DNA of 43,646 nt from Rhodospirillaceae bacterium (GTDB lineage Bacteria; Pseudomonadota; Alphaproteobacteria; Rhodospirillales; UBA2165). The notes below the pieces were generated by a model. That model did no database searches, was not told the origin of the DNA, and saw only the letters and a list, made by a program, of their open reading frames with translations. Made by a program: the position numbers and the translations under genes. The stretch covers positions 1 through 43,646 of the forward strand of contig JABIIH010000098.1 in the NCBI GenBank assembly GCA_018649245.1. The letters are read 5' to 3'. This document shows, piece by piece, positions 21,876 to 37,187 of this stretch (positions within the stretch are counted from its first letter, which is position 1; each line of letters opens with the position of its first letter).

Positions 21876-22867
21876 TTGCGCGTGCCCTCCAGTCGAATAC
21901 GAGGATCAAGCACCGCTAGCAGCAGATCGGAAATAAACATCCCAACCACGGTTAGGAGCGAAACAAACAGCAGGAATGAGCCGGCCAGGAACATATCTTG
22001 GCTCGTGAGAGCATCGAGAATAACCGGCCCAGTCGTCGGCAAATCCATGATCACGGCAACGATAACAGCGCCCGAGATGACTTGCGGCAACAGGTTACCA
22101 ATGTCGGCAATGAATGGATTGAGGGCCATGCGCAGTGGGTATTTCAGCAGCAATTTCCCTTCCGGCAGACCTTTCGCCCGCGCTGTTACGACATATTGTT
22201 TGTGCAGCTCATCAAGCAAATTGGCCCGCAACCGCCTTATCATGCCAGCCGTTCCCGAAGTCCCGATAACCACCACCGGAACAATCAAATGCTCTAGCAG
22301 CGACAGTATTTTATCGAACGTCCACGGCTGGTTTTCGAAAGATGGATCAACCAGGCCACCAATCGAAGTACCAAAATATTTACGCGCCAAGAACATTAAA
22401 ATCAGCGCCAGCAGAAAGTTTGGCGTCGCCAGTCCAATAAACCCGACAAAGGTAAGTCCGTGATCACCCCAGCTGTATTGATGGGTCGCTGAATAAACGC
22501 CGATCGGAAAGGCAACAATATAAATAAAAACGATAATGCTAAAATTGAGAATAAGCGAAAATACAAACACTTCACCGATGACTTCCGTGACCGGCAAATC
22601 AAATTCGATCGAGCGACCGAAATCACCCTGCACAACGCCACCAATCCAAGAAAGATATTGCAGCCAAACTGGCTTATCGAGACCAAACTCTTCTTTTAAA
22701 TACGCAATTTTCTGAGGATCGACCGCCTCGCCTTGGCTTTCCAGCTCAGCAATATAGCTGGTCAGATAATCTCCTTCGGGCAGTTGAATAATGACGAATA
22801 CCAATGCGCTGACAACCAGCAACGTCAGGATCATCGTCAAAATCCGGCGGGCGAAATAATTAAGCAT
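21872..22867 (-). CDS. ABC transporter permease, peptide/opine/nickel (Dpp/Opp/YejB-like) family
   Basis: The N-terminus MLNYFARRILTMILTLLVVSALVFVIIQLPEGD is typical of DppB/OppB/YejB. The EAA-type loop reads YVVTARAKGLPEGKLLLKYPLRMALNP. Confidence 0.85.
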   Translation of the reverse strand: MLNYFARRILTMILTLLVVSALVFVIIQLPEGDYLTSYIAELESQGEAVDPQKIAYLKEEFGLDKPVWLQYLSWIGGVVQGDFGRSIEFDLPVTEVIGEVFVFSLILNFSIIVFIYIVAFPIGVYSATHQYSWGDHGLTFVGFIGLATPNFLLALILMFLARKYFGTSIGGLVDPSFENQPWTFDKILSLLEHLIVPVVVIGTSGTAGMIRRLRANLLDELHKQYVVTARAKGLPEGKLLLKYPLRMALNPFIADIGNLLPQVISGAVIVAVIMDLPTTGPVILDALTSQDMFLAGSFLLFVSLLTVVGMFISDLLLAVLDPRIRLEGTRK

Positions 22868-22872
22868 GGGGT

Positions 22873-24798
22873 CTAATTCAACTTTCTTTTTGTATTCTTC
22901 GCACTAAACCAGAATTGATCGGGACGATAGACGCCAAAATGCGCGCCGGGATCCCAATTATAAATTGCTACTTTCGGCACATTTCTTAAATTCTTTTTGG
23001 TCACAACTACCTGCGGCACACTGGATATGATACCAATCGAAAAAAGCTGATTGGTGTATATGTCAAGCATCTCAGTCCAAATACGATGGCGCTCGTCTCG
23101 GCTCGTGGCGCCAGCCCAAACTTTATTCAGCTCGGCCAATTTAACCGCCAGCGGCATATCAGTTTTCTCTCCAGCCCGGCCACGGGTTTCAACATGCTGG
23201 CCCCATTTTGGCCATTGCAATTGTTGCTGACTGGTTGGCGCCAGCTCCTGCGGGCTCGAATCCGGGCTTGGAATTCCGTTCTCCAAACCGAACCACATCG
23301 ACATTTTAACCAGACCACTAAATATCCGATTGCGTAAAACATCGCGCTGCATCGGTTTTAAGAACAGTTTGATGCCAATATTGCGCCATGAATCACGGAT
23401 TAGTTCCATCACATCGGAGGGCTCGGATTCTTCGGTCGAAAATACCACCGTCAATTCCAGCCGTTTGCCGTTCGGCAATAGCCGGATACCGGCCGGTGTT
23501 TTTTTGGTCAGCCCCATTTCATCAAGCAATGCATTGGCGCGTTTTATATCAAATGTCGCCCAACGTTTTTGAAACTTTGGTTGATAGAGCGGGCTTTCCG
23601 GCAACACCGTATTATTGCCTTCCCGCGCCAAACCATAATAAATCACCTGGTTGATCTCACGGCGATTAATACCGAGTGACATGGCCCGTCTAAACCGTAC
23701 ATCCCGGAATAGTTTACGCCACACCGGGTCTTGCACTGTCAAATTGGGGAACAATGCCCAGCGCGAGCCTTTGGCGGTTCGCCACAACAGGGTCGAGAAA
23801 CCAGATTGCTTTTCCGATTGTTTGAGTGCCGTAACGTTACTGAAATTGAGTCCACGGGCCTGCAGATCGCTCTCGCCGCTGCCGGTTTTTATCGGGATCA
23901 ATTTGTTGTTGGTCACATTCATCCGGACTTCATCGATATAAGGCAGCTGCCGGCCTTTAGCATCGATCCGATAATAATAAGGATTGCGCTTGAAGGCAAA
24001 ACGCTTGGCCGGTGGCTTGGTGGCTAACATCCAGGGCTGCAGGGTCGGCAAATCCGGATTGGCATTTTTATATTGCTGGCCGACGGCATAATGAAGGGCC
24101 ACCCAATTGCGTTTTTTAGCCGCTTTTACTTGTGCCTGCAAAGTCGCAGCATCGGTATATTTGGCATGGTACTTTTTCATATAATGAGCTGGCCGGTAGA
24201 GATATAACGGCCGTGCGCCCGCTAAACGGGGTAGGAAGAACGGATTTGGCTTGGACCAGCTATAGCGGATGGTAACATCGTCAAGCACCTCAAATTTCGC
24301 CCGTTCACCATCAACGATTAAAGCCGCCGGCGGACTTTCGTTGCGGACTTCAGTATTGGTCGCAACATCTTCCCAGTAATAGCGGAAATCTTCCGCGGTG
24401 AATGGATGCCCATCCGACCATTTATGGCCAGCTCGCAAATGAAGCGTAAAAATACGCCCTTCCTTAACGTCAAGCTTAGCCAATATATCCGGCTTGATGT
24501 TAAAGCTTTGATCGTACCCGGCCAATCTCGCATAACCATAAACCACCATTTGGCGGGTGTCTTTTTTGCGGCCCATAAGAATATTGAGTCGGCCACCGTG
24601 GCGTCCAGGTTCAACACCCTCTCCGGTAAAGTTTACAACTGACGGATTTTTCGGAATACGCTGGGCTACTGGCGGCAACTTGCCGGCTTCAACATCAGTC
24701 TTCAGGCTGGGTGTTTCGACGAGATCCATCGCCCGGGCTGAAGTAATCGGCAATGATACTAAAATAGATAATAGGCTGATTAAAAAAGATTTTTTCAT
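22873..24798 (-). CDS. ABC transporter substrate-binding protein, family 5 (YejA/OppA-like), secreted
   Basis: Signal peptide MKKSFLISLLSILVSLPITSARA. At 641 aa it has the size and pattern of family-5 SBPs (WSDGHPFTAEDFRYYW). Confidence 0.85.
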   Translation of the reverse strand: MKKSFLISLLSILVSLPITSARAMDLVETPSLKTDVEAGKLPPVAQRIPKNPSVVNFTGEGVEPGRHGGRLNILMGRKKDTRQMVVYGYARLAGYDQSFNIKPDILAKLDVKEGRIFTLHLRAGHKWSDGHPFTAEDFRYYWEDVATNTEVRNESPPAALIVDGERAKFEVLDDVTIRYSWSKPNPFFLPRLAGARPLYLYRPAHYMKKYHAKYTDAATLQAQVKAAKKRNWVALHYAVGQQYKNANPDLPTLQPWMLATKPPAKRFAFKRNPYYYRIDAKGRQLPYIDEVRMNVTNNKLIPIKTGSGESDLQARGLNFSNVTALKQSEKQSGFSTLLWRTAKGSRWALFPNLTVQDPVWRKLFRDVRFRRAMSLGINRREINQVIYYGLAREGNNTVLPESPLYQPKFQKRWATFDIKRANALLDEMGLTKKTPAGIRLLPNGKRLELTVVFSTEESEPSDVMELIRDSWRNIGIKLFLKPMQRDVLRNRIFSGLVKMSMWFGLENGIPSPDSSPQELAPTSQQQLQWPKWGQHVETRGRAGEKTDMPLAVKLAELNKVWAGATSRDERHRIWTEMLDIYTNQLFSIGIISSVPQVVVTKKNLRNVPKVAIYNWDPGAHFGVYRPDQFWFSAKNTKRKLN

Positions 24799-24799
24799 C

Positions 24800-26713
24800 T
24801 TAGGATGCCTTTCTCAATTCAGCGCCGTCACCAGCAACGCGGACAAAATGCTGGTCGGCAATTTCCATCAATTGGGCATCGGCATCACCGTTTAAGGTAA
24901 AGGGAGCCGGCCAAGCTGCAGGCACCGAAGCCTTGCCTTCCATCAAGGCATCAAAATCCAATTGACGGTCAGGATCGGGATACGGCACAGCGGCTAAAAG
25001 GGCTTTGGTATAGGGATGAATTGGGTCTCGGAATAGAATTTCCCGGGGCGCGACTTCGACCAACCGGCCAGCGCACATAACGGCTATATTGTCAGCAACA
25101 TAATCGACCACGGCCAAATTATGAGAAACAAACAAATAGGTGAGCCCAAGCTCTTCCTGCAGGTCTTTCAAGAGATTTAGAATTTGCGCCTGAATAGATA
25201 CATCAAGGGCTGAAACCGGTTCGTCACATAACAACAGTTCAGGTTTTAAGGCTAACGAGCGCGCAATGCTAATCCGCTGGCGCTGTCCGCCGGAAAAACT
25301 ATGAGGATAGCGATTGAGGAAGCGTGGATCGAGACCAACCAAATTCATCAGCTCTTTCACCATCTCAATGCGATATGCAGCGTCGCCAATTTTATGAATA
25401 TCCAATGGTTCACTGACGATATCAAATACTGTCATCCGTGGGTTAAGCGACCCAAATGGGTCTTGGAAGACATACTGATATTTGGTCCTGAACGGAATTA
25501 ATTCAGCGCCGCTTAAATTGGTTAAATTAACGTCGGTGCCGGCGTCATTAAAGATTACCTCACCGGTATCAGGCTTCAATGCGCGCATAATAATTTTACT
25601 GAGGGTGGTTTTACCGCAGCCGCTTTCACCCACCAGGCCCAGTGTCGTGCCGCGCTGAATATCAAAGCTTACATCGTCCACGGCTTTTATCGTATCGTGG
25701 CCGGAGCCAAACATGCCGCCTTTGCGGATGCTGTATGATTTGGAAATATTACGCACGCTTAAAAGTGGCCGCGTATCAGCAGCGTCAATTTCCGGACGTT
25801 CATCAGGTTCCAATAGATGACCGGTGGTATGCTCAATCTCGCGGATCGGCACTAGGCGCTCACCCGGCTTCATATCAAAATGCGGCACTGCGCGCAGCAA
25901 TGATTGGAGATAAGGATGGGATGGCGCACGGTAAATATCGTCTTTCGTCCCGGCTTCGGTAATTCTGCCGTTATACATCACCACAATTTCATCTGCGATA
26001 TTCGCCACTACTCCCAGGTCATGAGTAATAATGAGCACTGCCATTTCTAAATCGGTTTGCAGGTCGGCAATCAATTTCAATATTTGGGCTTGAATCGTCA
26101 CGTCCAAAGCCGTGGTTGGCTCATCGGCGATCAACAAGGCCGGGCGACAGACGAGCGCCATGGCGATCATAGCACGTTGACGCAATCCGCCGGAAAGCTC
26201 AAAAGGATAAGTATCGAGCGCTTTTTTCGGATCTGGAAAACCTACGACCCGCAACATTTCTTCAACCGCTTCATAGGCAGTAGGTTTATTTACATCACTA
26301 TGCAGCAGCATTGCCTCGCTAATTTGATTGCCGATGGTATGCAGCGGTGACAGCGACGTCATTGGTTCCTGGAAAATCATTGAAATACGGCCGCCACGAA
26401 TGGCTTGCATGGCTTTGCCGTTGCGATCCAACTCGGCGATGTTAGTGGCCCCAAAACGACGTTCCGGACTTACATGCAATTCTGAGCGCTGCGGATCAGC
26501 AAACAAAATTTCGCCGCCGGTAATCATTGCCGCTTTCGGCAAAATTCCCATGATGGCTTGCGCAATCGTCGATTTACCGGAACCAGATTCGCCAACAATG
26601 GCGACCGTAGACCCTGGCTGCACCCGAAAAGAGACACCGGCAACGGCCTGCACTGTCCCAGAGGGCACCTGAAACTCAACGGATAAATTGTTTACCTGCA
26701 ATAGTTCATTCAT
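24800..26713 (-). CDS. ABC transporter ATP-binding protein with two fused ATPase domains (YejF-like)
   Basis: NBD1 carries GESGSGKST, LSGGLRQR and LLIADEPTTALD. NBD2 carries GESGCGKTT, FSGGQRQR and LLLCDEPVSALD. Confidence 0.9.
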   Translation of the reverse strand: MNELLQVNNLSVEFQVPSGTVQAVAGVSFRVQPGSTVAIVGESGSGKSTIAQAIMGILPKAAMITGGEILFADPQRSELHVSPERRFGATNIAELDRNGKAMQAIRGGRISMIFQEPMTSLSPLHTIGNQISEAMLLHSDVNKPTAYEAVEEMLRVVGFPDPKKALDTYPFELSGGLRQRAMIAMALVCRPALLIADEPTTALDVTIQAQILKLIADLQTDLEMAVLIITHDLGVVANIADEIVVMYNGRITEAGTKDDIYRAPSHPYLQSLLRAVPHFDMKPGERLVPIREIEHTTGHLLEPDERPEIDAADTRPLLSVRNISKSYSIRKGGMFGSGHDTIKAVDDVSFDIQRGTTLGLVGESGCGKTTLSKIIMRALKPDTGEVIFNDAGTDVNLTNLSGAELIPFRTKYQYVFQDPFGSLNPRMTVFDIVSEPLDIHKIGDAAYRIEMVKELMNLVGLDPRFLNRYPHSFSGGQRQRISIARSLALKPELLLCDEPVSALDVSIQAQILNLLKDLQEELGLTYLFVSHNLAVVDYVADNIAVMCAGRLVEVAPREILFRDPIHPYTKALLAAVPYPDPDRQLDFDALMEGKASVPAAWPAPFTLNGDADAQLMEIADQHFVRVAGDGAELRKAS

Positions 26714-27210
26714 GCTGGCTGCCCACTCTCAGGTATCCTGATATTAAGCGCGTCTATATTGCGCAGCGTCGCACTACTCAATTCCAACTTATTCTGCATC
26801 GCTGCGCGAACGGAGTTGAGAACAACCTGTTCAAAATCGGACAAATTAGACTCAAAGCGAAAGGTATGACCGGCGCCTTTTAGACGTAACTGCATCCACC
26901 CATTACCGCCGCTCCGCCAAGTCGTAAAATATGACAGCGAAAGATCGGTGAGTTTTTCCCAGGGAATAGCTCGATACTTAAAAATCTTCATCGTAATCTT
27001 TTGTTCATCCAATTCTATGCGTGCAAATTGGCGGCACAATGTCCGCAATCCATAAAGCGCAAATAAAGCCGCGCAACCAAGCAGGATTAGCACACCGCCA
27101 GCAGCTTTCGCCCCTAATACATAGGGAGCAAAACAAAAATTAAACCCCACAAAAGCACGAAAATAATCGGCTCGAAGATTGACGAGGGAATAGCCGTGAT
27201 TCGTTATCAT
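26710..27210 (-). CDS. Hypothetical membrane protein (two TM segments plus a possible bacterial PH-like domain)
   Basis: Hydrophobic segments FVGFNFCFAPYVLGA and GGVLILLGCAALFALYGL are followed by a beta-rich region (IELDEQKITMKIFKYRAIPWEKLTDLSLSYF...GWMQLRLKGAGHTFRFES). It starts 1 nt after the upstream stop and overlaps the downstream ATPase start by 4 nt. Confidence 0.55.
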   Translation of the reverse strand: MITNHGYSLVNLRADYFRAFVGFNFCFAPYVLGAKAAGGVLILLGCAALFALYGLRTLCRQFARIELDEQKITMKIFKYRAIPWEKLTDLSLSYFTTWRSGGNGWMQLRLKGAGHTFRFESNLSDFEQVVLNSVRAAMQNKLELSSATLRNIDALNIRIPESGQPA

Positions 27211-27211
27211 T

Positions 27212-30200
27212 TTATTGAGCCTTAGGCCGTTCCTTTATTGTATGTACATTACTATTATCGGCCTGCAAAGCAGGTAAATCGTGATCACCATTAATATTTT
27301 CCAGCGATCTCGCTTGAAATTCCCAATTTTCAGATAATTGAAAGCTTTGCTCATCTATTTTAATCGGTTCTGTCATACTTTTAACGATTCTACTGGCCAA
27401 TAGATCTACGGCATTTACTTCCGCAATCGGACTGACAATAAACGCAATGGTCATATCCTCGATTCGAGCTGCGATGTCGGTCTCACGCATGCACGCACTT
27501 ACCCGATTGGCGACTTCCCGTAATAACCGGTCACCAACATCATCGAGCATCGCGCTGTTCAGATTAAAGTTCTTTTCAATATCAAACCACATTAACGCCG
27601 ATAATTCTTTATACCGCTCATTGCGCGCAATTATATTATTCAAGCGATCCGTAAACAGGCGTCTGTCAGGCAGATTAGTTATTGCATCACGAACCGTCGA
27701 GGCGTCGCTGAGATCCCGTGTCGTGCGCTCTAGGCGATCGGCAACCGAACGGGTCACCCTCGCACTCATATCGACATCTTCTGAAATCAATTTAAAGAAC
27801 ACATCTTTTGAAATGCTCATGACATTCAGATTGCTGGCAGCCTTGATCGTTGCGGTTCTTGGTGCGTCACACAACAAGGCCAATTCACCAAACAAATCAT
27901 TTTTCTTCATGGTGACTAGAGTTTTCGGGCCATCTAGAGTTTCTAGAATGACATCTGCTTCACCGCCAACGATGACATAGGCTTTATCGCCAACTTCACC
28001 TTGCTCGAACACAGTTTCACCGGCGTTATATTCATAGCGTTCACTGGCAAAGGAGAGCAATTTCAATCTTGAGCGGTCGAGGCCGCCAAATAGAGGTACG
28101 CTGGCAAGAACATCAATTTCATCGCCGAACCCGCCTTCGGCCCGGGTTTCTTCGACCGGTTGCTCGACTGATTCAGTTTTAACCTCGTCACCTTGAACGG
28201 CAACTTTACCGCCGGCGATAGAATAAATTTGGTCAAACGGCACATCGACTTCAATTTCACTCGGCACAAATAACAGGCTTTTACCTTCCTGTTCCCGGCG
28301 AATACTGTTCAAGACATTTGCCTGACTTTCGCCATCCAATCCCGTCAACGCTTCGTTCATAACAAACATGTCAGGTTGTTTGATCATGCCGCGGGCGATG
28401 GCCAATTTTTGGCGCTGGATATTTGAAAGTCGAGCACCAGCATTACCGACTTCGAAATTCAGACCTAAGCCAATAATTTCTTCGCGTAAGCCGGTCTCCC
28501 TAATAACCGCGGCCATTAATTCACCCACAGCATCAGCACTTTCAGCCCGTTCGCTGGCCAATTTGCCAAATAAAATATTATCCTGAACCGAGCCCGCCGA
28601 ATTGAAATTCTCGGTATCAAAAAACTCAACCGCGGCGCTAAGATTCTCTGGCAAATTGTCACAAAAGACCGTGCGCGCTTCCAATAGCTGCAGAGCAAAA
28701 TCATCTTCGATCAGACCAAGGTGATGACGCGCTGGTATTAACTTGAAGGGTAAGGCAATTAAATGTGCCCGGTCTTCATCGCTGATACTTTCAATACCAT
28801 TTTGAGTTATGCGATTTAAGAGAGCTTCAAATTCCGGCAAATCTTCGGCGCTAATGAAACTAAAACGTTCAAAAAATTCGTGATCAGCTGGCAGACCGCG
28901 GAATAAATCGACCATAATTTCCGCCAAGCGGTGTCCCTTGGTTAGGAAATCATTGCTTAAACCACATTTCTCAAGCACCTCCAAAACATACGCATTCTCA
29001 CCGAGTGCATCAATTTCAAATTCCTCACCCACCGGGGTGCCAAATAAAATATTTTCCGCCACCGACGCGTTGGTATTGAATTTTTCTTGTTCAAAGGATT
29101 CAACAAAACCGGAAATTTCCGCCTCGTCCAATTGCTGGCGCAAAATTTTTCTGGCCGACAATAATTTGCCTGCCAAATCCGGGCTACTATTATGATCAAC
29201 AGTTTGGCGCAGACCAATCTGATAAACATCATCTTCCAGGCCAACCTGCGCCAAATAGTGAATTTCTTTTTGCGTTAACGCCGCCTGATCTTCGGCACCG
29301 ACCATTGCCATATCGACCCAATCCGCTTGAATGTCATATGGACTGTTGCCGGAACCAATTGAATCGGCAACAAACCTAGCCCGCGTGGATTTCTCTTCAT
29401 CTGAATAACCGGCCTCTCTCATTGGCCGGTGTTTAAGGCCATAAAGTAAATTATCGCGGATGGTGCCTGAAAATATATAAGGCTCTTGGCTAACATAAGA
29501 GAATTTTCGACCGGTCACAGCTTCCGGCATGTCGGTAACATTTTGCTCACCCAAGGTGATGCGGCCACCTGATGGCGATAATAGACTTGTCATTAATTGG
29601 GACAACTCCCCCTTACCGCTACCCGGCGCGCCAACCAGCGCGACATGCGACGGCAAATCCATCGACATGGATGCGCCATCGATTACCCGCAGACCATCAT
29701 CCTCGATCCAACTGATATTTGCCGCCATCAATTTACCTTCAAGCGTCGGCAAATCTTCAACGTCGAGCTTTTGCTGATCCTCGTCAATCAGTTCGGGGAT
29801 TTCAAATTTCTCAATCAACTGCTGGTATTTGATCTTGGAATCTTCCAGCCGCTGATAATAGGTCAGCAGCATTTTCCAAGGGGCGGAAACATCTTTGTAG
29901 GCACTCAAAACGGCAATCAAGGCACCCATGGTTATGTCGCCGTTGATAACAAGCAATCCACCAATGGAGAAAAAGAAAAATGGTGTCAGCAGAGCAAGGA
30001 AGTTGTTGATAAATTTTATAAAGAATTTCTTCTGGTAGATTTGATAGCGAATATTATAGATTCGACCGAGGCGATCAGATAAATCCGCCAACTCATATTG
30101 CGAGGTATCATTGGCATGTATCTCATGTGCGCCGGACACTGTTTCACCAATGCGCTCAGACAGGCGGCGCACTGTTAAGACGCGTTCCTTGCCGAGTAAA

Positions 30201-30793
30201 TTTACTTTCTTTTGTAATTTCGGAATTAAATAACCCTGCAATGGATAAAGCGCTATAGCCGCCAGACCAAGCTTCCAATCCTGAACGAACATAAAGACCA
30301 TCAAGGTAACTAATGTGCCGCCCTGATAAGAAGGTAAGGACAATGCTTCGCCAAAGAAACCACCGAGCGGCTCGGTTTCCAAGGTAACCATAGAGACGAC
30401 TTCACCCTGAGAAGTTTTTCGAAATTGTGGTAATGGAAATCTGAGAACGCGTTCTAAAAGCTGAAAGCGGAGGCGGCGCAGCATCCGCTCACCTGCAGCA
30501 CCACGATAGACATTAATAAAATATTTGAAGCCACCATTGACGAAAACTAAAAGCAGAAAAAGACCACAGAGCGTTAACAAATAGGGGACCTGCTCTAACT
30601 CCATGCCCAAATAGTTTTTAGGAAAAGCAAGTTCTTTACTACCGCTTTTACCGCCTAGCGCGTCATCAATGATCTGTTTTGGCAGCGCGAGATAAATAAA
30701 ATAAAACGGCAGAGATGCACCAGCCAGAATTCCAAGAAACAATTGTTCTTTTTTGCTGTAGCGCAAAACGTATTGGAAAATGCCTTTATCCAT
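27212..30793 (-). CDS. Multidomain protein: ABC-exporter transmembrane domain, atypical ABC ATPase domain, cNMP-binding domain and degenerate GGDEF domain
   Basis: TMD at aa ~1-320. Walker A GAPGSGKGE at aa 388-396, Q-loop VSQEP, signature-like LSNIQRQ at aa 789-795, and Walker B-like DMFVMNEALTGLD. The cNMP cassette FGELALLCDAPRTATIKA lies within the cNMP domain (aa ~895-1010). The GGDEF-like domain at aa ~1030-1160 (DAITNLPDRRLF, GDRLLREVA) has RETD followed by EDMTI in place of GGDEF. Confidence 0.8.
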   Translation of the reverse strand: MDKGIFQYVLRYSKKEQLFLGILAGASLPFYFIYLALPKQIIDDALGGKSGSKELAFPKNYLGMELEQVPYLLTLCGLFLLLVFVNGGFKYFINVYRGAAGERMLRRLRFQLLERVLRFPLPQFRKTSQGEVVSMVTLETEPLGGFFGEALSLPSYQGGTLVTLMVFMFVQDWKLGLAAIALYPLQGYLIPKLQKKVNLLGKERVLTVRRLSERIGETVSGAHEIHANDTSQYELADLSDRLGRIYNIRYQIYQKKFFIKFINNFLALLTPFFFFSIGGLLVINGDITMGALIAVLSAYKDVSAPWKMLLTYYQRLEDSKIKYQQLIEKFEIPELIDEDQQKLDVEDLPTLEGKLMAANISWIEDDGLRVIDGASMSMDLPSHVALVGAPGSGKGELSQLMTSLLSPSGGRITLGEQNVTDMPEAVTGRKFSYVSQEPYIFSGTIRDNLLYGLKHRPMREAGYSDEEKSTRARFVADSIGSGNSPYDIQADWVDMAMVGAEDQAALTQKEIHYLAQVGLEDDVYQIGLRQTVDHNSSPDLAGKLLSARKILRQQLDEAEISGFVESFEQEKFNTNASVAENILFGTPVGEEFEIDALGENAYVLEVLEKCGLSNDFLTKGHRLAEIMVDLFRGLPADHEFFERFSFISAEDLPEFEALLNRITQNGIESISDEDRAHLIALPFKLIPARHHLGLIEDDFALQLLEARTVFCDNLPENLSAAVEFFDTENFNSAGSVQDNILFGKLASERAESADAVGELMAAVIRETGLREEIIGLGLNFEVGNAGARLSNIQRQKLAIARGMIKQPDMFVMNEALTGLDGESQANVLNSIRREQEGKSLLFVPSEIEVDVPFDQIYSIAGGKVAVQGDEVKTESVEQPVEETRAEGGFGDEIDVLASVPLFGGLDRSRLKLLSFASERYEYNAGETVFEQGEVGDKAYVIVGGEADVILETLDGPKTLVTMKKNDLFGELALLCDAPRTATIKAASNLNVMSISKDVFFKLISEDVDMSARVTRSVADRLERTTRDLSDASTVRDAITNLPDRRLFTDRLNNIIARNERYKELSALMWFDIEKNFNLNSAMLDDVGDRLLREVANRVSACMRETDIAARIEDMTIAFIVSPIAEVNAVDLLASRIVKSMTEPIKIDEQSFQLSENWEFQARSLENINGDHDLPALQADNSNVHTIKERPKAQ

Positions 30794-30924: not shown

Positions 30925-32073
30925 TTAATTTATCCAAGCTTTTATCAGCCCAGCTGTCGTATCTGCTCCATTCATATTCAGCTCGTTAAGACCGTCAAGC
31001 GGTTGTTCAACTGCCGCATTTATTGTATTTGCGAGCCCGTCAATGGTCAATTCATCTTCAGGAATTTGGCGAATAAGTCCGCGCTCCGCTAATAGGCGTG
31101 CCCGCAGCGTCTGCTCGGTCTCATGTCCCCCAGCATAAGGTACGACGATACCGTTAGCCTTAGTGAGAAGGATTTCCATCAACGTATTGTAGCCCGCTTG
31201 TGAAACCGAAAGATGACAATTTTTAAGCAGTGTCACGAAATCAGAACGCGCGCGTTCTATCATAACTCCGGGCACTTCTTCTGCCTTTAGCGAATTAAAA
31301 ACTGCATCAGACATGCTGTAGCCTACAAGAATACGCCAAGTTCGATCCGCAACCGTTGTCAAGGACCGAGCCTTCAAGGAAGTCCTGAGCAAATTCTCAC
31401 CTACCGCGCCACTGCCCGATGAAACGATAATTTCTTCGCTGCCCTGATCACCTGCCGCTTTCATCGCCAAGTCTTTTTCCACCACATAGCCGGTGTAGTG
31501 CAACATGTCCTTGATATCTGCGGCCCGCCTAAAGGTGTTCTCGAACGGAATAAGCGCAGCATCACCGTGGATCAGAACATCGTCAAAATAGCTACGTGCC
31601 GTTTCCACCATTTCGACATCGCGCTGCGGTTTGTTCTTTTCGACCAGGATATCGCGCACCGAACATACGATGTGAGGACGCGGCGTGGCTTTGCCGGCAG
31701 CCTCTAATAAGGGGATCAGTTCAAACCGCAACTGCCGGCGGCCAAAGGGATAAAGCTCAATTATCAAAACATTTGGTTGAATTTCCTGGAAAATCTCAAG
31801 CAGCTTTTGTTTGCGCATCTGTTTTAAATCTTCATCCACCGGATTGCCCTCGGCATCAACCAGGCCATCAAAACTCCGGTCATTTGCTTTAACCGATGGC
31901 AGTTGGACAAAAGTCATACCACTGCTATCCAATACCGGGACATCTTCACCGCCCGAGATTACCGTCACCTCGAGCCCTGCGGCCGTCATGGCGCGGGCCA
32001 GAGTAGCTGCCCTTTTGACATGACCAATGCCCAGCAAATGCTGAACATAAAACAGGACTTTTGGCTTACTCAT
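30925..32073 (-). CDS. Predicted GT-B glycosyltransferase (COG4671 / MurG-like family)
   Basis: The N-terminus KVLFYVQHLLGIGHVKRAATLARAM is the pattern I associate with COG4671 predicted glycosyltransferases. It is a paralog of the 35054..36292 product. Confidence 0.6.
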   Translation of the reverse strand: MSKPKVLFYVQHLLGIGHVKRAATLARAMTAAGLEVTVISGGEDVPVLDSSGMTFVQLPSVKANDRSFDGLVDAEGNPVDEDLKQMRKQKLLEIFQEIQPNVLIIELYPFGRRQLRFELIPLLEAAGKATPRPHIVCSVRDILVEKNKPQRDVEMVETARSYFDDVLIHGDAALIPFENTFRRAADIKDMLHYTGYVVEKDLAMKAAGDQGSEEIIVSSGSGAVGENLLRTSLKARSLTTVADRTWRILVGYSMSDAVFNSLKAEEVPGVMIERARSDFVTLLKNCHLSVSQAGYNTLMEILLTKANGIVVPYAGGHETEQTLRARLLAERGLIRQIPEDELTIDGLANTINAAVEQPLDGLNELNMNGADTTAGLIKAWIN

Positions 32074-32659
32074 ATTTGGTCATTTCGAGATTTAATTCAT
32101 GGACGGATAATTTCCCGGCTGCATCAAGCTTGAACATCTGCGCGCAGCCATCCAACAACTTAACCGGCGGTTTGTTGACCATGTCCCAATCTATGGCGGC
32201 GGCGTAAAGAGCACGAATAACACCTTTGTGGACAACTGCTATGGTGGGCTGACCATGTTCCGCGATTTCGGTTAGCAACGGTGCAATTCGGACTTGCACC
32301 TCGCGCGGGCTTTCACCCTTGGGTCCGCGAAAATCCAAACCTTTAGCTTCCCAGGCCGCCATCAAATCTCCGTGCTCTTCGCGAAGATCTTTTAAGGTCC
32401 GCCCTTCCCACTCACCCCACGCCATTTCAACCAAGCGATGATCGGTTTCGGGTTCGCTGCCGGAAAGTATTGTCGCGGTCTCAAAGGCGCGTTTTAACGG
32501 ACTGGCTAGCCAACGAAACCCAGCTAGCTCTTTTGGCATTATCCAGCCACCGACTTCAGCCCGGCCAGTATCATTAAGCGGGACATCGGTGCTGCCTTGC
32601 ACCAATCCGGTGGCATTCCATTCGGTCGTGCCATGACGAATAAGGGCAAGCAGTGTCAT
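32066..32659 (-). CDS. Histidine phosphatase family protein (phosphoglycerate-mutase-like)
   Basis: Contains the catalytic RHG motif (LALIRHGTTEWN), a downstream SPLKRAFETA and VVHKGVIRAL. Size is 197 aa. Confidence 0.8.
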   Translation of the reverse strand: MTLLALIRHGTTEWNATGLVQGSTDVPLNDTGRAEVGGWIMPKELAGFRWLASPLKRAFETATILSGSEPETDHRLVEMAWGEWEGRTLKDLREEHGDLMAAWEAKGLDFRGPKGESPREVQVRIAPLLTEIAEHGQPTIAVVHKGVIRALYAAAIDWDMVNKPPVKLLDGCAQMFKLDAAGKLSVHELNLEMTKYE

Positions 32660-33771
32660 TGGATTAAAGCTCTCAAAGTTTGGTCCAGGGTTTTGGCAGC
32701 CGCCTCAATGGAATGCTCATTTCGCACTATTTTAATAGCCGCCTCAGACATTTCTTTTCGTTCAACTTGGCCAGTTAACAGATCGCTCACTTTAGCAGCG
32801 AAATCCACGGCATTGCCAACCTCGCATAAGAGACCGGTCTCACCAGCGCGGATAATATCGGCGACGCCACCGGTCGCGCCCGCAATTACTGGCAGCCCCA
32901 TCGCTTGCGCTTCCAGCATGGCCATACCGTAGGCTTCGTTGACGGCGGGCCAAACAAATAAATCGCAGCCGGCCAAAATCGGGCTTATTTCATTTTCCGG
33001 TAACTCACCAAGGAAAACTACGCGATCCGTCCCGAGATGAGATTCAACCTGAGCTCTCGCCGGACCATCGCCAATAACCAGCAGCTGCCAGTCTGACGTT
33101 TTAATGTTCTTTAAGGCCTGACCCAACACTTCATAAGACTGAAGCTTGGCATCGTCGCGCATCATCGCCACAGTAACCATCATAGGTAAATTTGGCTCGA
33201 GTTGATGGCGCTCGACAAGTTCGGCTCTAGCTTTTGCACCGTCTATGAGGGACGGCATTTTCATAAATGGCTTTAAAGATATCAGTTTGCTCGGGTCTTT
33301 CATAACCGGCAAGACGCAGACGCTATCCAGCGAATTTAAACTGATGATCGCATCGGCGTGCTGAATAATATCGCCTAACACCCGATGGCTCATATCCCAC
33401 GGCCCACCGGCACGCTTGGGCGCGTAGGATACTTCGGCCGCGACGTACGGAATATTAAGCGCTTTTGAAACCAGCGGGCCAATCCAATCCATCGCTTTAT
33501 AATATAGACGATAAGTAAACCAGATATCCGGACATTGAGCAGAATCGGTATATTGAGCAATCAACTCTTCAGCAATTTTGTGGCCTTCTGATTGCAACTT
33601 CTTTTGTGCTGCCAAATCACCCGTAGGCTCCCGTGCCTTCAATTCTGAGGCGATTTCAACTTCGTGTCCGCAGATTTTCAACGCCTCAATAAGAGAGCGG
33701 GCAACACGCCGGTCGCCGGAAGGCACTTCAGAATTCGGCGATTTCATGGGGGCGTAAAAAGCAACCTTCAT
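32656..33771 (-). CDS. Glycosyltransferase family 4 (GT-B, Glycos_transf_1)
   Basis: The C-terminal domain pattern EAYGMAMLEAQAMGLPVIAGATGGVADIIRAGETGLL is EX7E-type. Confidence 0.8.
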   Translation of the reverse strand: MKVAFYAPMKSPNSEVPSGDRRVARSLIEALKICGHEVEIASELKAREPTGDLAAQKKLQSEGHKIAEELIAQYTDSAQCPDIWFTYRLYYKAMDWIGPLVSKALNIPYVAAEVSYAPKRAGGPWDMSHRVLGDIIQHADAIISLNSLDSVCVLPVMKDPSKLISLKPFMKMPSLIDGAKARAELVERHQLEPNLPMMVTVAMMRDDAKLQSYEVLGQALKNIKTSDWQLLVIGDGPARAQVESHLGTDRVVFLGELPENEISPILAGCDLFVWPAVNEAYGMAMLEAQAMGLPVIAGATGGVADIIRAGETGLLCEVGNAVDFAAKVSDLLTGQVERKEMSEAAIKIVRNEHSIEAAAKTLDQTLRALIQ

Positions 33772-35033
33772 GCCACTTGGTCTACATCTTTGTTTTGTGG
33801 CCGCTCGGCTGCCAAATCAAACAGTGGGTACAATTTAGTCATACAGGATTTGAAATCAAAGGAAGTACGGACGTTTTCCGCTCCGGCCTCGCCTAGTTTT
33901 GCCCGATGCTGGGGATTCTGGATCAGCACGGTTAGTTTTTCCGCCAGCATTTTAATGTTACTGGGCTCGACCAGCAGACCCGTGGCTTCATTTTCGATCA
34001 GCTCTGGGATCGCGGATACAATCGTGGACAGACACGCCAAGCCTTGTGACTGGGCTTCCATCAAAACATTTGGTAGGCCATCTCGGTCACCATTGCCAGC
34101 CACCAGACTGGCGAGCACGAAAAAATCAGCTTCTTGGTATTGCACCGTGACTTCTTCCTGAGATTGCGAACCCAGCCAAGTAATACGGTCTGCAATCCCC
34201 CACCCTGCCGCGGCGCGCTTTAATTTATTAATCAGCGGCCCGCCGCCAACATGGACGAGATGCCAATTGAGGTCTTTTGGCAAGAGCGCCAGTGCCGCCA
34301 GCAAATCTGCATAACCTTTTTTTTCAACCGCGCGGCCAACCGATAATATTCTAACCGGATCATCTGCGTTAGCGCCATTGCGGTCGCTATAGTCAATCTG
34401 GCGGGCCGGAAAGCGTTGTAGATCTATGCCATGATAGGCCAGCGTTACTTTATTCTTTTGTTCAGTAATTGACGCCAAATAGCTTTGGTTCACTTCTGTA
34501 CACGTTACCGCCCATGAGCATTCTTTTAATTTGTCGCGCAAATCCCACTCGGGCGTGGTCCAGATATCAATAGCATGGGCCGAGCAAGACCATGGCAGGC
34601 CCTTAAGTATCGCAGCGTAACGCGTAACCGAAGAAGGTGTATGCAAAAAATGAGCGTGCAGATGCTCTATGTTGTCAGACAACTCCGCCGCCAGAACCAG
34701 CGCCTGACCAAACCGCCTGACCCGATTGAACGAGCGGTCACGGGCCAAATCCCGCTTCCATAATTGATAGACTTTTTGATAGGACGCCCAGCCGCGAACT
34801 TGACGCCAGGCCCGCCAAACACGGCCTATTTCCTGATACAGGTACTCCGGCAGATAACTAACCGGTGCGGTAATTTCAGCGTGAATGGGGTGGGTTTTAG
34901 TATCGGTCGGATGGCGCAGCGATACTATTTGTAACGGCAGGCCATGTTTCTCGAGCTCGCGAATTTCCTGCGCGATGAAAGTCTCGGAGAGACGCGGGTA
35001 ACCTTTGAGAATAATCGCTGTAGCTTTGGCCAC
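33768..35033 (-). CDS. Glycosyltransferase family 4 (WcaL-like)
   Basis: N-terminus ILKGYPRLSETFIAQEIRELEKHG and C-terminal LPNVLMEAQSQGLACLSTIVSAIPELIENEATGLLV. Confidence 0.8.
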   Translation of the reverse strand: MAKATAIILKGYPRLSETFIAQEIRELEKHGLPLQIVSLRHPTDTKTHPIHAEITAPVSYLPEYLYQEIGRVWRAWRQVRGWASYQKVYQLWKRDLARDRSFNRVRRFGQALVLAAELSDNIEHLHAHFLHTPSSVTRYAAILKGLPWSCSAHAIDIWTTPEWDLRDKLKECSWAVTCTEVNQSYLASITEQKNKVTLAYHGIDLQRFPARQIDYSDRNGANADDPVRILSVGRAVEKKGYADLLAALALLPKDLNWHLVHVGGGPLINKLKRAAAGWGIADRITWLGSQSQEEVTVQYQEADFFVLASLVAGNGDRDGLPNVLMEAQSQGLACLSTIVSAIPELIENEATGLLVEPSNIKMLAEKLTVLIQNPQHRAKLGEAGAENVRTSFDFKSCMTKLYPLFDLAAERPQNKDVDQVA

Positions 35034-35053
35034 GAGTACCTCGTGCTATGTTG

Positions 35054-36292
35054 CTATCGACCTACAACAGCGAGATCAGCAGAACTTTCGCCAGTACGTT
35101 TTCTATCAAGATGCTTGCCAGCCAAGCGGCTGATATTCGGTAAGCCATCCAGCAGACCAGGCAACACAACATTCGAAGGCGGATATTGTTGAGTTAACTG
35201 ACGCAACGCCGTTATCATCAAAGATGTATTACGAATTCCGTCATCATTCAACAACGACATCAACCCCAATTCCTGGGCTCTTGAAGCACGTATGTATTGC
35301 TCCAACCTCGGCTGTGTTCGGGGAATGATCAGGCCCGGCTTATTAAAAGATAGAATTTCACAGAAAGTATTGTAGCCACCCATCGCGATGACACCGACCG
35401 CATTTTTCATCAAATGCTCAAAATGGGCATCAAAAGTGATGGCATCGACCTGATCCAATTTCTCAATCCGCTCTAGAAAATTCTCCTGGGCCTCGGTTTG
35501 CATAAAGGGGCCAAAGACAAGAAGAGACGGATGGGGAATAGATTCTCCTGTTTCGTAAGCCCGCAGCACCCAATCGATTAGCGCCTCACCATCACCGCCA
35601 CCGCCTGCGGTCACCAAGTAATATGGCTGTTCCGTCACAGAAGCAGAAACACTGGCTGCCGCATCCGGCACGCCATAGCGCAGATAACCAGTATAGACGA
35701 TTTTGCGGCGTACTGATTCTGGCAGATCAACGCCGGTTAGTGGATCATACACCTGCGGTAATCCATAAACCCACAATTCATCATATAGGTCTTCCAACGC
35801 AGGCAGGACGTTTTTGCGTTCCCATTCCGGCACCAGTAATGCCGGTTCATCCATGACATCCCGGAGACCAAGCACCAATGAGGTGCCGCGCTGTTTTAAC
35901 ATCTGCAGGGTTTCTGCCACTTCACCGCGTAGACCTAATGGCTCTTTATCAACAATAAATATGTCAGGATCAAAAACATCCGCCGTATGCTGGATGATGG
36001 AACCACGCAACTCCATGGTTTTCTCAATATCCAAATGCAGATTAAGCGGCGTGTAATCACCATTGCGCAATTTAATAACGCCCGGCACCCGGACAAAGTC
36101 AACGCGCGCGCGGAAATCAAAACTACCGATGATCGGCGAGCCGGAAAGAATGAGCACGGAAAGTTTGTTATAGGAGCCTACCAAGTAATGCGCGATTGCC
36201 CGGCACCGCCTAAGGTGGCCGAGACCAAAACTATCGTGACTATAAATCAGGACACGGTAATCGTCCCGCTTGGTAACACTCTGGCTGGTCAT
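35054..36292 (-). CDS. Predicted GT-B glycosyltransferase (COG4671 / MurG-like family)
   Basis: N-terminus RVLIYSHDSFGLGHLRRCRAIAHYL, and C-terminal AMGGYNTFCEILSFNKPGLIIPR, which is a MurG-like nucleotide-sugar-binding pattern. Confidence 0.6.
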   Translation of the reverse strand: MTSQSVTKRDDYRVLIYSHDSFGLGHLRRCRAIAHYLVGSYNKLSVLILSGSPIIGSFDFRARVDFVRVPGVIKLRNGDYTPLNLHLDIEKTMELRGSIIQHTADVFDPDIFIVDKEPLGLRGEVAETLQMLKQRGTSLVLGLRDVMDEPALLVPEWERKNVLPALEDLYDELWVYGLPQVYDPLTGVDLPESVRRKIVYTGYLRYGVPDAAASVSASVTEQPYYLVTAGGGGDGEALIDWVLRAYETGESIPHPSLLVFGPFMQTEAQENFLERIEKLDQVDAITFDAHFEHLMKNAVGVIAMGGYNTFCEILSFNKPGLIIPRTQPRLEQYIRASRAQELGLMSLLNDDGIRNTSLMITALRQLTQQYPPSNVVLPGLLDGLPNISRLAGKHLDRKRTGESSADLAVVGR

Positions 36293-37182: not shown

Positions 37183-37187
37183 CCGAC

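What the first reader, a model, noticed from the sequence alone, without database searches (positions are those of the whole stretch)
27212..30793. 1193-aa ABC-exporter-like protein fused to a cNMP-binding domain and a degenerate GGDEF domain that retains an RxxD I-site
Reading the translation gives four modules:
- aa ~1-320 look like a six-helix ABC-exporter membrane domain.
- aa ~355-865 are an ABC ATPase domain.
- aa ~895-1010 are a cyclic-nucleotide-binding domain (FGELALLCDAPRTATIKA).
- aa ~1030-1160 are a GGDEF-type domain (DAITNLPDRRLF, DIEKNF, GDRLLREVA).

In the GGDEF-type domain the active-site pentapeptide is EDMTI (aa 1112-1116). An RxxD motif (RETD, aa 1103-1106) sits exactly five residues upstream, which is the spacing of the allosteric I-site in PleD-type cyclases. 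Degenerate GGDEF domains that keep the I-site are known c-di-GMP receptors (PelD, PopA).

One polypeptide would therefore join a membrane transport module to two different second-messenger sensor domains, directly downstream of a glycosyltransferase operon. I do not recognise this architecture as a characterised family.
Basis: partly seen in the sequence, partly recalled or inferred. Interest (0 to 1): 0.85.

Follow-up and report, generated by a model that had tools for sequence, protein, structure and literature searches.

The report
Cyclic-nucleotide-sensing ABC-like membrane exporter
A 1193-residue membrane protein of an uncultured marine Rhodospirillaceae bacterium joins an ABC-exporter body, whose ATPase has lost its catalytic residues, to a cyclic-nucleotide sensor and a c-di-GMP-receptor-type domain, and it sits in a widespread, unstudied gene cluster with sugar transferases and a sugar-type importer.

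Summary
The ORF at 27212-30793 (minus strand, 1193 aa) has ABC_membrane, ABC_tran, cNMP_binding and GGDEF in that order. RETD (1103-1106) aligns with the I-site and EDMTI (1112-1116) with GGDEF.

Across 95 GGDEF-bearing homologues, R1103, D1106 and R1135 are 93-99% conserved while the active-site pentapeptide is hypervariable. This is the PelD-type c-di-GMP receptor signature. The cNMP phosphate-binding cassette is invariant.

- The "ATPase" is not canonical. About 300 aa are inserted, made of two extra copies of the Q-loop and helical-subdomain segment. Walker A Ser/Thr, Walker B Asp (Asn in 116/117), signature GG, H-loop His and mostly the A-loop aromatic are lost. None of 117 members is canonical.
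- The protein is the fused form of a widespread gene pair: an ~885-aa ABC-like protein plus a stand-alone cNMP-binding protein. The pair occurs in SAR324, rhizobia and others.
- The gene is embedded in a conserved cluster of glycosyltransferases and an SBP5 ABC importer.

No characterised member was found. Best reading: a second-messenger-gated, probably non-hydrolytic, export or gating component for the cluster's glycoconjugate. It is a new variant of known kinds. Function and substrate are inferred, not shown.

The parts
29804..30793 (-). Transmembrane domain (aa 1-330), six-helix type IV ABC-exporter fold. It is the most conserved part of the protein.
   Evidence: PF00664 covers aa 19-297, E 1e-27. 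The AF2 model shows long TM helices. Foldseek top hits are ABCB1, BSEP and TM287/288. The mean top-residue fraction is 0.75-0.82 for aa 81-320.
29411..29746 (-). N-terminal part of the NBD homologue (aa 350-461). It holds Walker A GAPGSGKG (nt 29609-29632; Ser/Thr replaced by Gly) and the authentic Q-loop YVSQEPYIFSGTIRDNLLYG (nt 29438-29497).
   Evidence: Alignment to P-glycoprotein NBDs. Family columns.
28505..29410 (-). Insertion of ~300 aa in the NBD (aa 462-763). It holds two extra copies of the pre-Q-loop strand, Q-loop and helical-subdomain start. Copy 2 carries NTNASVAENILFGT (nt 29036-29077). Copy 3 carries QDNILFGKL (nt 28559-28585).
   Evidence: The P-gp alignment is contiguous where the query has aa ~462-763. 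hhalign of family sub-alignments gives probability 97.5%, E 6e-12 over 78 columns for copy 2 against copy 3, and probability 87%, E 4e-6 for copy 1 against copy 3. pLDDT is about 90 across this region. The copy 2 and copy 3 motifs are nearly invariant in 117 + 167 sequences.
28184..28504 (-). C-terminal part of the NBD homologue (aa 764-870). Signature LSNIQ (nt 28415-28429), Walker B MFVMNE (nt 28352-28369, Asp replaced by Asn), and VPSE at the H-loop position (within nt 28250-28276).
   Evidence: P-gp alignment. N813 is kept in 116/117 sequences, there is no H-loop His, and no GG in the signature.
27695..28132 (-). Cyclic-nucleotide-binding domain with its C-helix (aa 888-1033). The phosphate-binding cassette is FGELALLCDAPRTAT (nt 27848-27892).
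   Evidence: PF00027, E 3e-18. Best solved relatives are PKG and PKA CNB domains. G969, E970 and R979 are kept in 117/117, T980 in 107 and A981 in 116. AF2 pLDDT is above 90, with CRP, Clr and PKG as structural matches. It is homologous (36-42% identity) to stand-alone cNMP proteins encoded next to the split form.
27332..27691 (-). Degenerate GGDEF domain (aa 1035-1154). I-site RETD is at nt 27476-27487, the pentapeptide EDMTI at nt 27446-27460, and the third I-site-type Arg R1135 at nt 27389-27391.
   Evidence: PF00990, E 5e-18. Alignments to TpbB, 3icl and PleD. R1103 94/95, D1106 93/95, R1135 89/96, with the pentapeptide hypervariable and metal-site D1071 kept in only 48/95.
30925..36292 (-). 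Upstream co-directional genes: GT28C-like (35054-36292), GT4 (33768-35033), GT4 (32656-33771), His_Phos_1 phosphatase (32066-32659) and GT28C-like (30925-32073).
   Evidence: Pfam and NCBIfam. Kept next to the ABC gene in about 20 Rhodospirillales loci, and in L047, L048, L049 (SAR324) and Sinorhizobium.
26710..27210 (-). 166-aa protein following the ABC gene one base after its stop codon. Two predicted N-terminal hydrophobic helices, then a ~100-aa domain with a weak bacterial PH-domain hint.
   Evidence: ORF. bPH_6 at E 0.02 only. Homologues sit in the same position in about 20 loci and in L048.
20721..26713 (-). Downstream co-directional ABC importer: fused two-NBD ATPase (24800-26713), family-5 solute-binding protein (22873-24798) and two permeases (21872-22867, 20721-21875). 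DUF454 follows at 20151-20657.
   Evidence: Pfam. Conserved with the ABC gene down to Sinorhizobium at 48-63% identity. The closest named solved relatives of the binding protein are oligosaccharide binders, SPH1118 and an alpha-galactoside binder.

Best explanation
The gene encodes the fused, most elaborate form of a conserved module: an ABC-exporter-fold membrane protein whose nucleotide-binding domain is expanded and catalytically degenerate, together with a cyclic-mononucleotide-binding partner.

In this Rhodospirillales clade the partner is fused to the C-terminus. It is followed by a degenerate GGDEF domain that has lost cyclase residues but keeps the c-di-GMP-binding triad RxxD...R.

Most likely mechanism:
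- The dimeric membrane domain is the export or gating device for a glycoconjugate made by the adjacent glycosyltransferases.
- Its open/closed equilibrium is set post-translationally. A cyclic mononucleotide (cAMP or cGMP) binds the CNB domain and c-di-GMP binds the I-site.
- The signal is passed through the long CNB C-helix and the C-terminal dimer to the NBD-like domains.
- The NBD-like domains act as a dimerisation and regulatory module, not as an ATP-hydrolysing motor.
- The co-transcribed, canonical ATP-driven family-5 importer would take the product, or its breakdown oligosaccharide, back up.

Shown: domain homologies, motif states, conservation, the split/fused relation and gene linkage.

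Inferred: ligand binding, lack of ATPase activity, direction and identity of transport, and coupling.
For: Domains and order.

I-site:
- RETD aligns to RxxD and EDMTI to GGDEF.
- R1103 94/95, D1106 93/95 and R1135 89/96, against a domain background of 0.35-0.47, with the pentapeptide hypervariable.
- The Arg-to-Arg spacing is 32. This equals the experimentally validated B. cereus PelD triad R363/D366/R395. P. aeruginosa PelD has R367/D370/R402 (PMC7112168).

CNB domain:
- The Gly, Glu, Arg and Thr/Ser of the cassette are invariant or nearly so.
- These are the residues that contact the phosphate and ribose in Clr (G85, E86, R95, S96; PMC10127613).
- The best solved matches are PKG and PKA CNB domains.
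- A class III cyclase gene lies directly upstream of the cluster in Sinorhizobium sp. B11.

Ancestral partnership:
- The ~885-aa basal form is immediately followed by a 151-182-aa cNMP protein that is 36-42% identical to aa 888-1033.

Degenerate NBD:
- Motif assignment comes from the P-gp alignment.
- 0/117 fused-clade and 2/167 basal members have Walker A K[ST] together with Walker B DE.
- The Walker B Asp position is Asn in 116/117 of the fused clade. In basal forms it is S58/Y42/N24/D22/H9.
- The A-loop position is Leu in 74/117, and the fused clade has no H-loop His.

Other points:
- The membrane domain is the most conserved region, as expected if it is the effector.
- Linkage to the GT genes and the importer holds from 35% to 89% identity and survives rearrangements.
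- There is precedent for an ABC-exporter-fold membrane domain working without ATP hydrolysis: SbmA/BacA (PMC8442886, PMC13316013).
Against: No experiment exists on any member, and nucleotide binding was not tested.

The P-loop GxxGxGK is still fairly conserved (K394 in 98/117), as are LSxxQRQ and the D-loop Asp. Nucleotide binding, or slow or unconventional hydrolysis, cannot be excluded. The invariant residues in the insertion (for example H638, H690, R707) could supply substitute catalytic groups.

The substrate is unknown. The core cluster has no priming phosphoglycosyltransferase, polymerase or outer-membrane exporter.

The GGDEF tail has been lost about 13 times in a rough tree, so c-di-GMP control is dispensable.

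In Granulosicoccus the homologue is not next to GT or importer genes.

AF2 is a monomer model and says nothing about coupling.
Confidence: 0.5

Rival explanations
1. It is an ordinary ATP-driven homodimeric type IV ABC exporter of the MsbA, NdvA or PglK type. It pumps the product of the glycosyltransferase operon. The two C-terminal sensor domains merely tune the rate of an otherwise normal ATPase cycle.
For: The best NCBIfam similarities are MsbA, HepA, CydDC, NdvA/ChvA and PglK, all far below their cut-offs. The fold matches ABCB exporters. P-loop Gly and Lys, the Q-loop Gln, LSxxQ, Walker B Glu814 and the D-loop Asp are present in the window protein.
Against: Both Mg2+ ligands are missing: Walker A Ser/Thr is Gly and Walker B Asp is Asn. 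The H-loop His and the signature GG are also absent. This holds family-wide, with 0/117 canonical members, and the basal family has Ser, Tyr or His at the Walker B Asp position. In a homodimer both sites would be degenerate. A 300-aa insertion sits in the helical subdomain.
Confidence: 0.2
2. It does not transport anything. It is a membrane-anchored second-messenger receptor or scaffold, PelD-like in logic, that activates or organises the neighbouring glycosyltransferases at the membrane. The ABC fold would be retained only as an anchor and dimerisation platform.
For: The ATPase motifs are degenerate. The I-site triad is PelD-like. Linkage to GT4 and GT28-like genes is tight, and GT28a is the most conserved partner at 49-64% identity as far as SAR324 and Sinorhizobium. 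The protein has no enzymatic output domain.
Against: The membrane domain is the most strongly conserved part and has many invariant polar and charged residues. This is more than an anchor would need. The full six-helix exporter architecture and coupling-helix region are retained with good model confidence. The cluster has no other candidate exporter.
Confidence: 0.15
3. The GGDEF-like tail is an evolutionary remnant used only for dimerisation. The conserved RxxD is structural and c-di-GMP plays no role. Only the cNMP domain is a sensor.
For: The tail is missing from 22 of 117 close homologues and from all cultured relatives. It appears to have been lost many times. Mean conservation of the tail is the lowest in the protein.
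Against: Within a poorly conserved domain, exactly the three residues that form the c-di-GMP site in PelD and PleD stay 93-99% conserved, while catalytic and metal residues drift. A purely structural role does not predict that pattern.
Confidence: 0.15

Closest known systems
PelD (Pel polysaccharide c-di-GMP receptor of P. aeruginosa and B. cereus)
   Same: [quoted passage not shown] The Arg-to-Arg spacing is 32-35 residues, and 32 here. It works next to a GT4 glycosyltransferase (PelF) to switch on export of a glycan (PMC7112168).
   Different: PelD has a four-helix anchor and a GAF domain. It has no ABC-exporter fold, no NBD homologue and no cNMP domain. No sequence relation was found beyond the GGDEF superfamily, and PelD was not among the PDB sequence hits of the tail.
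Type IV (ABCB-like) half-transporters for glycans and lipids: MsbA, NdvA/ChvA, PglK, HepA
   Same: They share the membrane-domain family (PF00664) and NBD homology. These are the best NCBIfam similarities and Foldseek matches. They likewise sit next to glycan synthesis genes.
   Different: All scores are far below the family cut-offs (for example MsbA 176 against 602 bits). Catalytic motifs are degenerate, the NBD carries a ~300-aa triplication insert, and C-terminal sensor domains are present.
ABC proteins with degenerate sites or non-pump function: CFTR, SUR, TM287/288, TAP1 (from established knowledge)
   Same: These are ABC-exporter folds in which a nucleotide site has lost catalytic residues. 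The protein is used as a gated channel or regulator, and CFTR is additionally under cAMP/PKA control.
   Different: In those proteins only one of two sites is degenerate and a consensus site still hydrolyses ATP. Here a presumed homodimer would have two degenerate sites. Cyclic nucleotides would bind directly to a fused domain rather than act through a kinase.
SbmA/BacA (SLiPT family)
   Same: It is an ABC-exporter-like membrane domain that transports without ATP hydrolysis, driven by the proton gradient (PMC8442886, PMC13316013). It shows that the fold can work without a motor NBD.
   Different: SbmA/BacA has no NBD at all and imports peptides. The present family keeps a remodelled NBD homologue and sensor domains. 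No specific sequence relation was tested.
CRP/Clr, PKG and PKA cyclic-nucleotide-binding domains
   Same: They share the fold and the phosphate-binding cassette residues. A long C-helix follows the beta-barrel, as in CRP dimers.
   Different: The output is neither a DNA-binding nor a kinase domain. It is an ABC-like membrane protein, fused or encoded as a neighbour. Ligand specificity (cAMP or cGMP) cannot be read from the sequence.

Membership tests
ABC exporter, type IV fold (PF00664 + PF00005 half-transporter) | Six-helix ABC_membrane domain N-terminal to an NBD | tested here: met
   PF00664 covers aa 19-297 at E 1e-27. PF00005 is found in two pieces. The AF2 model and Foldseek hits point to ABCB1 and TM287/288.
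ABC exporter, type IV fold (PF00664 + PF00005 half-transporter) | Catalytically competent NBD: A-loop aromatic, Walker A GxxGxGK[ST], Q-loop, LSGGQ, Walker B hhhhDE, H-loop His | tested here: not met
   The window protein has GKG, LSNIQ, FVMNE and VPSE. Across the family 0/117 members are canonical, Asn occupies the Walker B position in 116/117, and the A-loop position is Leu in 74/117. The basal relatives are also degenerate.
ABC exporter, type IV fold (PF00664 + PF00005 half-transporter) | ATP-dependent substrate export by a dimer | not testable with these tools
   Needs purified protein or genetics.
MsbA, NdvA or PglK equivalogs (NCBIfam) | Score above the curated equivalog cut-off | tested here: not met
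   MsbA 176 against 602 bits, HepA 161 against 725, NdvA-type 107 against 733, PglK 77 against 1000.
Cyclic-nucleotide-binding domain (PF00027) as a genuine cNMP receptor | Pfam match above threshold, with the phosphate-binding cassette Gly-Glu...Arg-[Thr/Ser]-Ala intact | tested here: met
   65.8 bits against a cut-off of 27.5. G969, E970 and R979 are kept in 117/117, T980 in 107/117 and A981 in 116/117. These are the same contact residues as in Clr.
Cyclic-nucleotide-binding domain (PF00027) as a genuine cNMP receptor | Binding of cAMP or cGMP | not testable with these tools
   Specificity cannot be read from the sequence. The R-T-A cassette occurs in both cGMP and cAMP binders.
Active diguanylate cyclase (GGDEF, PF00990) | GG[DE]EF active site and metal- and substrate-binding residues | tested here: not met
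   The Pfam match is met (65.8 against 23.8 bits). However, the pentapeptide is EDMTI and is hypervariable in the family, and D1071 is kept in only 48/95.
Degenerate-GGDEF c-di-GMP receptors (PelD, PopA type) | Degenerate A-site with the I-site RxxD kept five residues upstream, plus the downstream Arg of the binding triad | tested here: met
   RETD and the five-residue spacing are supported by alignment to TpbB, 3icl and PleD. R1103 94/95, D1106 93/95, R1135 89/96. The spacing of 32 equals that of B. cereus PelD.
Degenerate-GGDEF c-di-GMP receptors (PelD, PopA type) | Measured c-di-GMP binding that depends on the I-site residues | not testable with these tools
   Needs ITC or DRaCALA with R1103A, D1106A and R1135A.

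The most novel reading that the evidence does not exclude
The whole superfamily comprises 656 representatives at 50% identity that carry the NBD insertion. The reading is that it is a previously unrecognised class of ABC-exporter-fold proteins that have given up ATP hydrolysis. The remodelled, triplicated NBD would serve as a ligand-controlled clamp, and a dedicated cyclic-nucleotide-binding partner would operate the gate. In this clade a c-di-GMP I-site domain is added. On this reading the protein is a second-messenger-gated efflux valve for a cytoplasmically made glycoside or oligosaccharide, paired with an ATP-driven re-uptake system.
Probability: 0.3. Interest if true: 0.85.

Novelty: new variant of a known kind. 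Interest (0 to 1): 0.68.

Why it matters
If the reading holds, it would add a direct post-translational link from cAMP/cGMP and c-di-GMP to a membrane export device. One polypeptide would integrate two second-messenger systems.

It would also define a large family of homodimeric ABC-fold proteins in which both nucleotide sites are degenerate and the helical subdomain is triplicated. That bears on the open question of how far the ABC exporter fold can work without an ATPase motor, alongside CFTR, SUR and SbmA.

The associated 9-12-gene cluster of glycosyltransferases plus a sugar-type importer is conserved from marine Rhodospirillales and SAR324 to model rhizobia. It has no assigned product, so a new exported glycoconjugate and its regulation are open to genetics in Rhizobium and Sinorhizobium.

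Tried and rejected
Literature. They covered architecture terms, COG4671, Rhodospirillales, S. meliloti pSymB terms, guessed locus tags SMb21481-86, and cNMP-binding proteins of S. meliloti. None found a paper on this architecture or cluster. The locus-tag route failed because the plasmid records of S. meliloti 1021 carry no annotation here. cyoA = SMb21487 was confirmed, but cyo is not adjacent in strain 1021.

Names. Cluster look-up gave only MAG-derived generic names.

Transcription signals. The promoter and terminator scan of 20000-37300 was at background level, so it says nothing about whether the 131-nt gap upstream of the gene starts a new transcript.

Fold and profile searches:
- Foldseek of the full-length model returned only generic ABCB exporters at low TM-scores.
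- Foldseek of the sensor half was dominated by the CNB domain and listed no GGDEF hits in the top 50.
- Pfam on the insertion alone gave nothing meaningful.
- A PDB sequence search with GT28a gave no hit.

Rejected ideas:
- The downstream importer is a peptide (Opp/Yej) system. Its named solved relatives bind oligosaccharides.
- The weak phmmer hit of GT28b to PelD (E 8e-4) was not taken as meaningful.

Limit.

Full report
**Observation**

The window holds an ATG-initiated ORF on the minus strand at 27212-30793 that encodes 1193 aa.
- ABC_membrane, aa 19-297, E 1e-27.
- ABC_tran in two separated pieces, aa 373-480 and about 732-870.
- cNMP_binding, aa 921-1006, E 3e-18.
- GGDEF, aa 1035-1154, E 5e-18.

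RETD is at aa 1103-1106 and EDMTI at aa 1112-1116, checked by translating nt 27476-27487 and 27446-27460. HMMER alignments to solved diguanylate cyclases put RETD on the RxxD of TpbB/YfiN (RESD) and 3icl (RDGD), and put EDMTI on their GGDEF/GGDKF. The match to native-length PleD, read as ungapped, maps R1103, D1106 and E1112 to R359, D362 and G368.

**The family and the two sensor domains**

A search of 5.8 billion proteins returned more than 100 full-length homologues at 43-89% identity. Almost all come from uncultured Rhodospirillales or Rhodospirillaceae, and they carry generic names only. There are two length classes: about 1180 aa with GGDEF and about 1030 aa without it.

In an alignment of 117 of them, the cNMP phosphate-binding cassette is essentially invariant:
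- G969, E970 and R979 in 117/117.
- T980 in 107/117.
- A981 in 116/117.

These are the residues that hold the cyclic phosphate and ribose in Clr (PMC10127613). The closest solved relatives are PKG and PKA CNB domains.

In the GGDEF-like domain the picture is the reverse of an enzyme:
- The pentapeptide positions are hypervariable.
- The metal-site Asp is kept in only 48/95.
- R1103 (94/95), D1106 (93/95) and R1135 (89/96) stand out against a background conservation of 0.35-0.47.

R1135 lies 32 residues after R1103. The c-di-GMP triads shown by mutagenesis and ITC in PelD are R367/D370/R402 in P. aeruginosa and R363/D366/R395 in B. cereus, the latter also with a spacing of 32 (PMC7112168). By sequence criteria the tail is a PelD- or PopA-type receptor domain and not a cyclase.

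AF2 models are confident for both sensor domains: pLDDT is about 90 in the separate sensor-half model. They show a long helix (aa ~1007-1031) linking the CNB barrel to the GGDEF-like domain, like the CRP C-helix.

**The 'ATPase' is not an ordinary ATPase**

Alignment to P-glycoprotein NBDs fixes the motifs:
- Walker A GAPGSGKG against GKS/T.
- Q-loop VSQEP.
- Signature LSNIQ against LSGGQ.
- Walker B FVMNEA against LLLDEA.
- VPSEI where P-gp has IAHRL.

The two halves of the NBD, contiguous in P-gp, are separated here by about 300 residues (aa ~462-763).

The degeneracy is family-wide:
- The Walker B Asp position is Asn in 116/117.
- The Walker A Ser/Thr position is S31/G24/T21/N19/D11.
- No signature GG and no H-loop His.
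- The A-loop aromatic position is Leu in 74/117.
- 0/117 members combine Walker A K[ST] with Walker B DE.

Profile-profile comparison of family sub-alignments shows that the insertion contains two further copies of the segment 'strand, Q-loop, TIxDNILFG, start of the helical subdomain'. Copy 2 against copy 3 gives probability 97.5%, E 6e-12 over 78 columns. Copy 1 against copy 3 gives probability 87%, E 4e-6.

The motifs of the extra copies (NASVAENILFG, QDNILFGK) are more conserved than the authentic Q-loop. The region is modelled with pLDDT of about 90. The membrane domain (aa 81-320) is the most conserved part of the whole protein.

**A wider superfamily and a split/fused partner**

The insertion alone (aa 455-785) was searched against 1.84 billion representatives. 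It found 656 proteins at E <= 1e-10. Among full-length hits:
- 46 have only the membrane domain plus expanded NBD (~820-950 aa).
- 18 add a cNMP domain.
- 2-3 add cNMP and GGDEF.

The basal form occurs in SAR324, Alphaproteobacteria and Geminicoccales. Its catalytic motifs are also degenerate: Walker A K followed by Glu in 103/167, the Walker B Asp position as S58/Y42/N24/D22/H9, and 2/167 canonical.

In two basal-form loci, and in Sinorhizobium, the gene is immediately followed by a stand-alone 151-182-aa cNMP-binding protein. In the two basal-form loci this protein is 36-42% identical to aa 888-1033 of the window protein. The cNMP sensor is therefore an ancestral partner that became fused. 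Only the GGDEF-like tail is special to this clade. A rough NJ/Fitch analysis suggests it is ancestral there and was lost about 13 times. None of 343 plasmid or chromid records of cultured bacteria covers the tail.

**Genomic context**

In the window, twelve co-directional genes with overlapping or nearly abutting ends run in this order:
1. GT28C-like.
2. GT4.
3. GT4.
4. His_Phos_1 phosphatase.
5. GT28C-like.
6. A 131-nt gap, then the ABC-cNMP-GGDEF gene.
7. A 166-aa membrane protein.
8. A fused two-NBD ATPase.
9. A family-5 binding protein.
10. A permease.
11. A second permease.
12. DUF454.

tblastn of these genes against related loci shows the same set around the ABC gene in about 20 Rhodospirillales loci, including loci where the two halves are divergently arranged. 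The set is also present at 44-47% identity, in the basal-form loci and in Sinorhizobium. S. meliloti 1021 pSymB at 831-845 kb has importer, GT28a, GT4a, GT28b, ABC and cNMP on one strand. A class III cyclase lies directly upstream in Sinorhizobium sp. B11. DUF3095 and a polysaccharide lyase lie upstream in strain 1021.

The binding protein's named solved relatives bind oligosaccharides, not peptides: the pectin-oligosaccharide binder SPH1118 at E 5e-63 and an alpha-galactoside binder at E 2e-29. The Granulosicoccus homologues lack this context.

**Mechanism**

Shown: homology, motif states, conservation, the split/fused relation and linkage.

Inferred:
- The dimeric membrane domain is the export or gating device for a glycoconjugate built by the neighbouring transferases.
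- The NBD homologue no longer works as a Mg-ATP-hydrolysing motor, because both Mg ligands, the H-loop His and the signature glycines are missing. It acts instead as a regulated dimerisation module.
- Cyclic mononucleotide binding at the CNB domain and c-di-GMP binding at the I-site triad set its state.
- The canonical ATP-driven importer recovers the product or its fragments.

SbmA/BacA shows that an ABC-exporter-type membrane domain can transport without ATP hydrolysis (PMC8442886, PMC13316013). CFTR and SUR are known examples of ABC folds used as gated or regulatory devices (established knowledge).

Against this reading:
- The P-loop Lys (98/117), LSxxQRQ and the D-loop are still conserved, so nucleotide binding or unconventional hydrolysis is possible.
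- The substrate is unknown.
- The tail is dispensable in many lineages.

Rivals are an ordinary regulated pump, a non-transporting PelD-like scaffold, and a purely structural GGDEF remnant.

**Comparison and novelty**

The protein fails the catalytic-motif test for a working ABC ATPase and all NCBIfam equivalog cut-offs. It passes the sequence tests for a genuine CNB domain and for an I-site-retaining degenerate GGDEF receptor.

No paper on the architecture or the cluster was found in ten searches. All source names are generic.

I rate it a new variant of known kinds: the ABC exporter fold, the CNB sensor and the I-site receptor. There is a credible chance (~0.3) that the superfamily is a new functional class of non-hydrolytic, cyclic-nucleotide-gated ABC-fold proteins.

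Interest is 0.68. The architecture is real, conserved and unstudied. The degenerate, triplicated NBD is unexpected. Cultured rhizobia carry the split form, which makes the question testable. Every functional statement is still inference.

Noticed in passing
window 22873-24798 (-): The family-5 solute-binding protein of the downstream 'Opp-like' importer has oligosaccharide binders as its closest named solved relatives: SPH1118, a pectin-oligosaccharide binder (E 5e-63), and an alpha-galactoside binder (E 2e-29). The importer probably takes sugars, not peptides.
   Followed up: partly
window 26710-27210 (-): A 166-aa ORF starts one base after the ABC gene's stop codon. By eye it has two N-terminal hydrophobic helices, and it has only a weak bacterial PH-domain hint (bPH_6, E 0.02). 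It is conserved in the same position in about 20 related loci. More distant loci carry a 255-aa protein with a faint DUF2334 hit there, instead of it or as well.
   Followed up: partly
L052 16685-19436 (S. meliloti 1021 pSymB ~841.7-844.4 kb): In strain 1021 the homologue of the ABC gene is split between two reading frames (ORFs 16685-17398 and 17148-19436). This is probably a frameshift or pseudogene. Strain LMB1 and Sinorhizobium sp. B11 have an intact gene.
   Followed up: partly
L025 10001-21186 (Granulosicoccus sp. 3-233): The gammaproteobacterial homologue (1049 aa, ABC plus cNMP) is followed by an extra stand-alone cNMP protein. It lies next to YcaO, ThcOx-like nitroreductase, P450 and halogenase-like genes, a RiPP-like neighbourhood, with a CitMHS/TrkA_C transporter upstream. 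The GT and importer cluster is absent. A CitMHS/TrkA_C gene also flanks the cluster in two Rhodospirillales loci.
   Followed up: no
window 18684-20126 (+): A 480-aa protein combines an Old-Yellow-Enzyme-type flavin oxidoreductase domain with a C-terminal fibronectin type III domain. This is an unusual pairing.
   Followed up: no
window 17738-18625 (+): A Methyltransf_24 gene on the opposite strand just beyond the importer operon is also kept near the cluster in many related loci, including L047 at 51% identity.
   Followed up: no
window 1377-3566 (-): Two tandem paralogous arylsulfotransferase (ASST) family genes of 359 and 358 aa.
   Followed up: no
window 36451-37182 (+): A 243-aa ORF lies on the opposite strand between the GT operon and an upstream ABC importer. 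It has no Pfam match and is found only in the closest relative, L002, at 93% identity.
   Followed up: no
window 30925-32073 (-), aa 311-357: A weak phmmer match (E 8e-4) links the C-terminal part of GT28b to the start of the crystallised PelD chain 4dmz. It is probably spurious.
   Followed up: no
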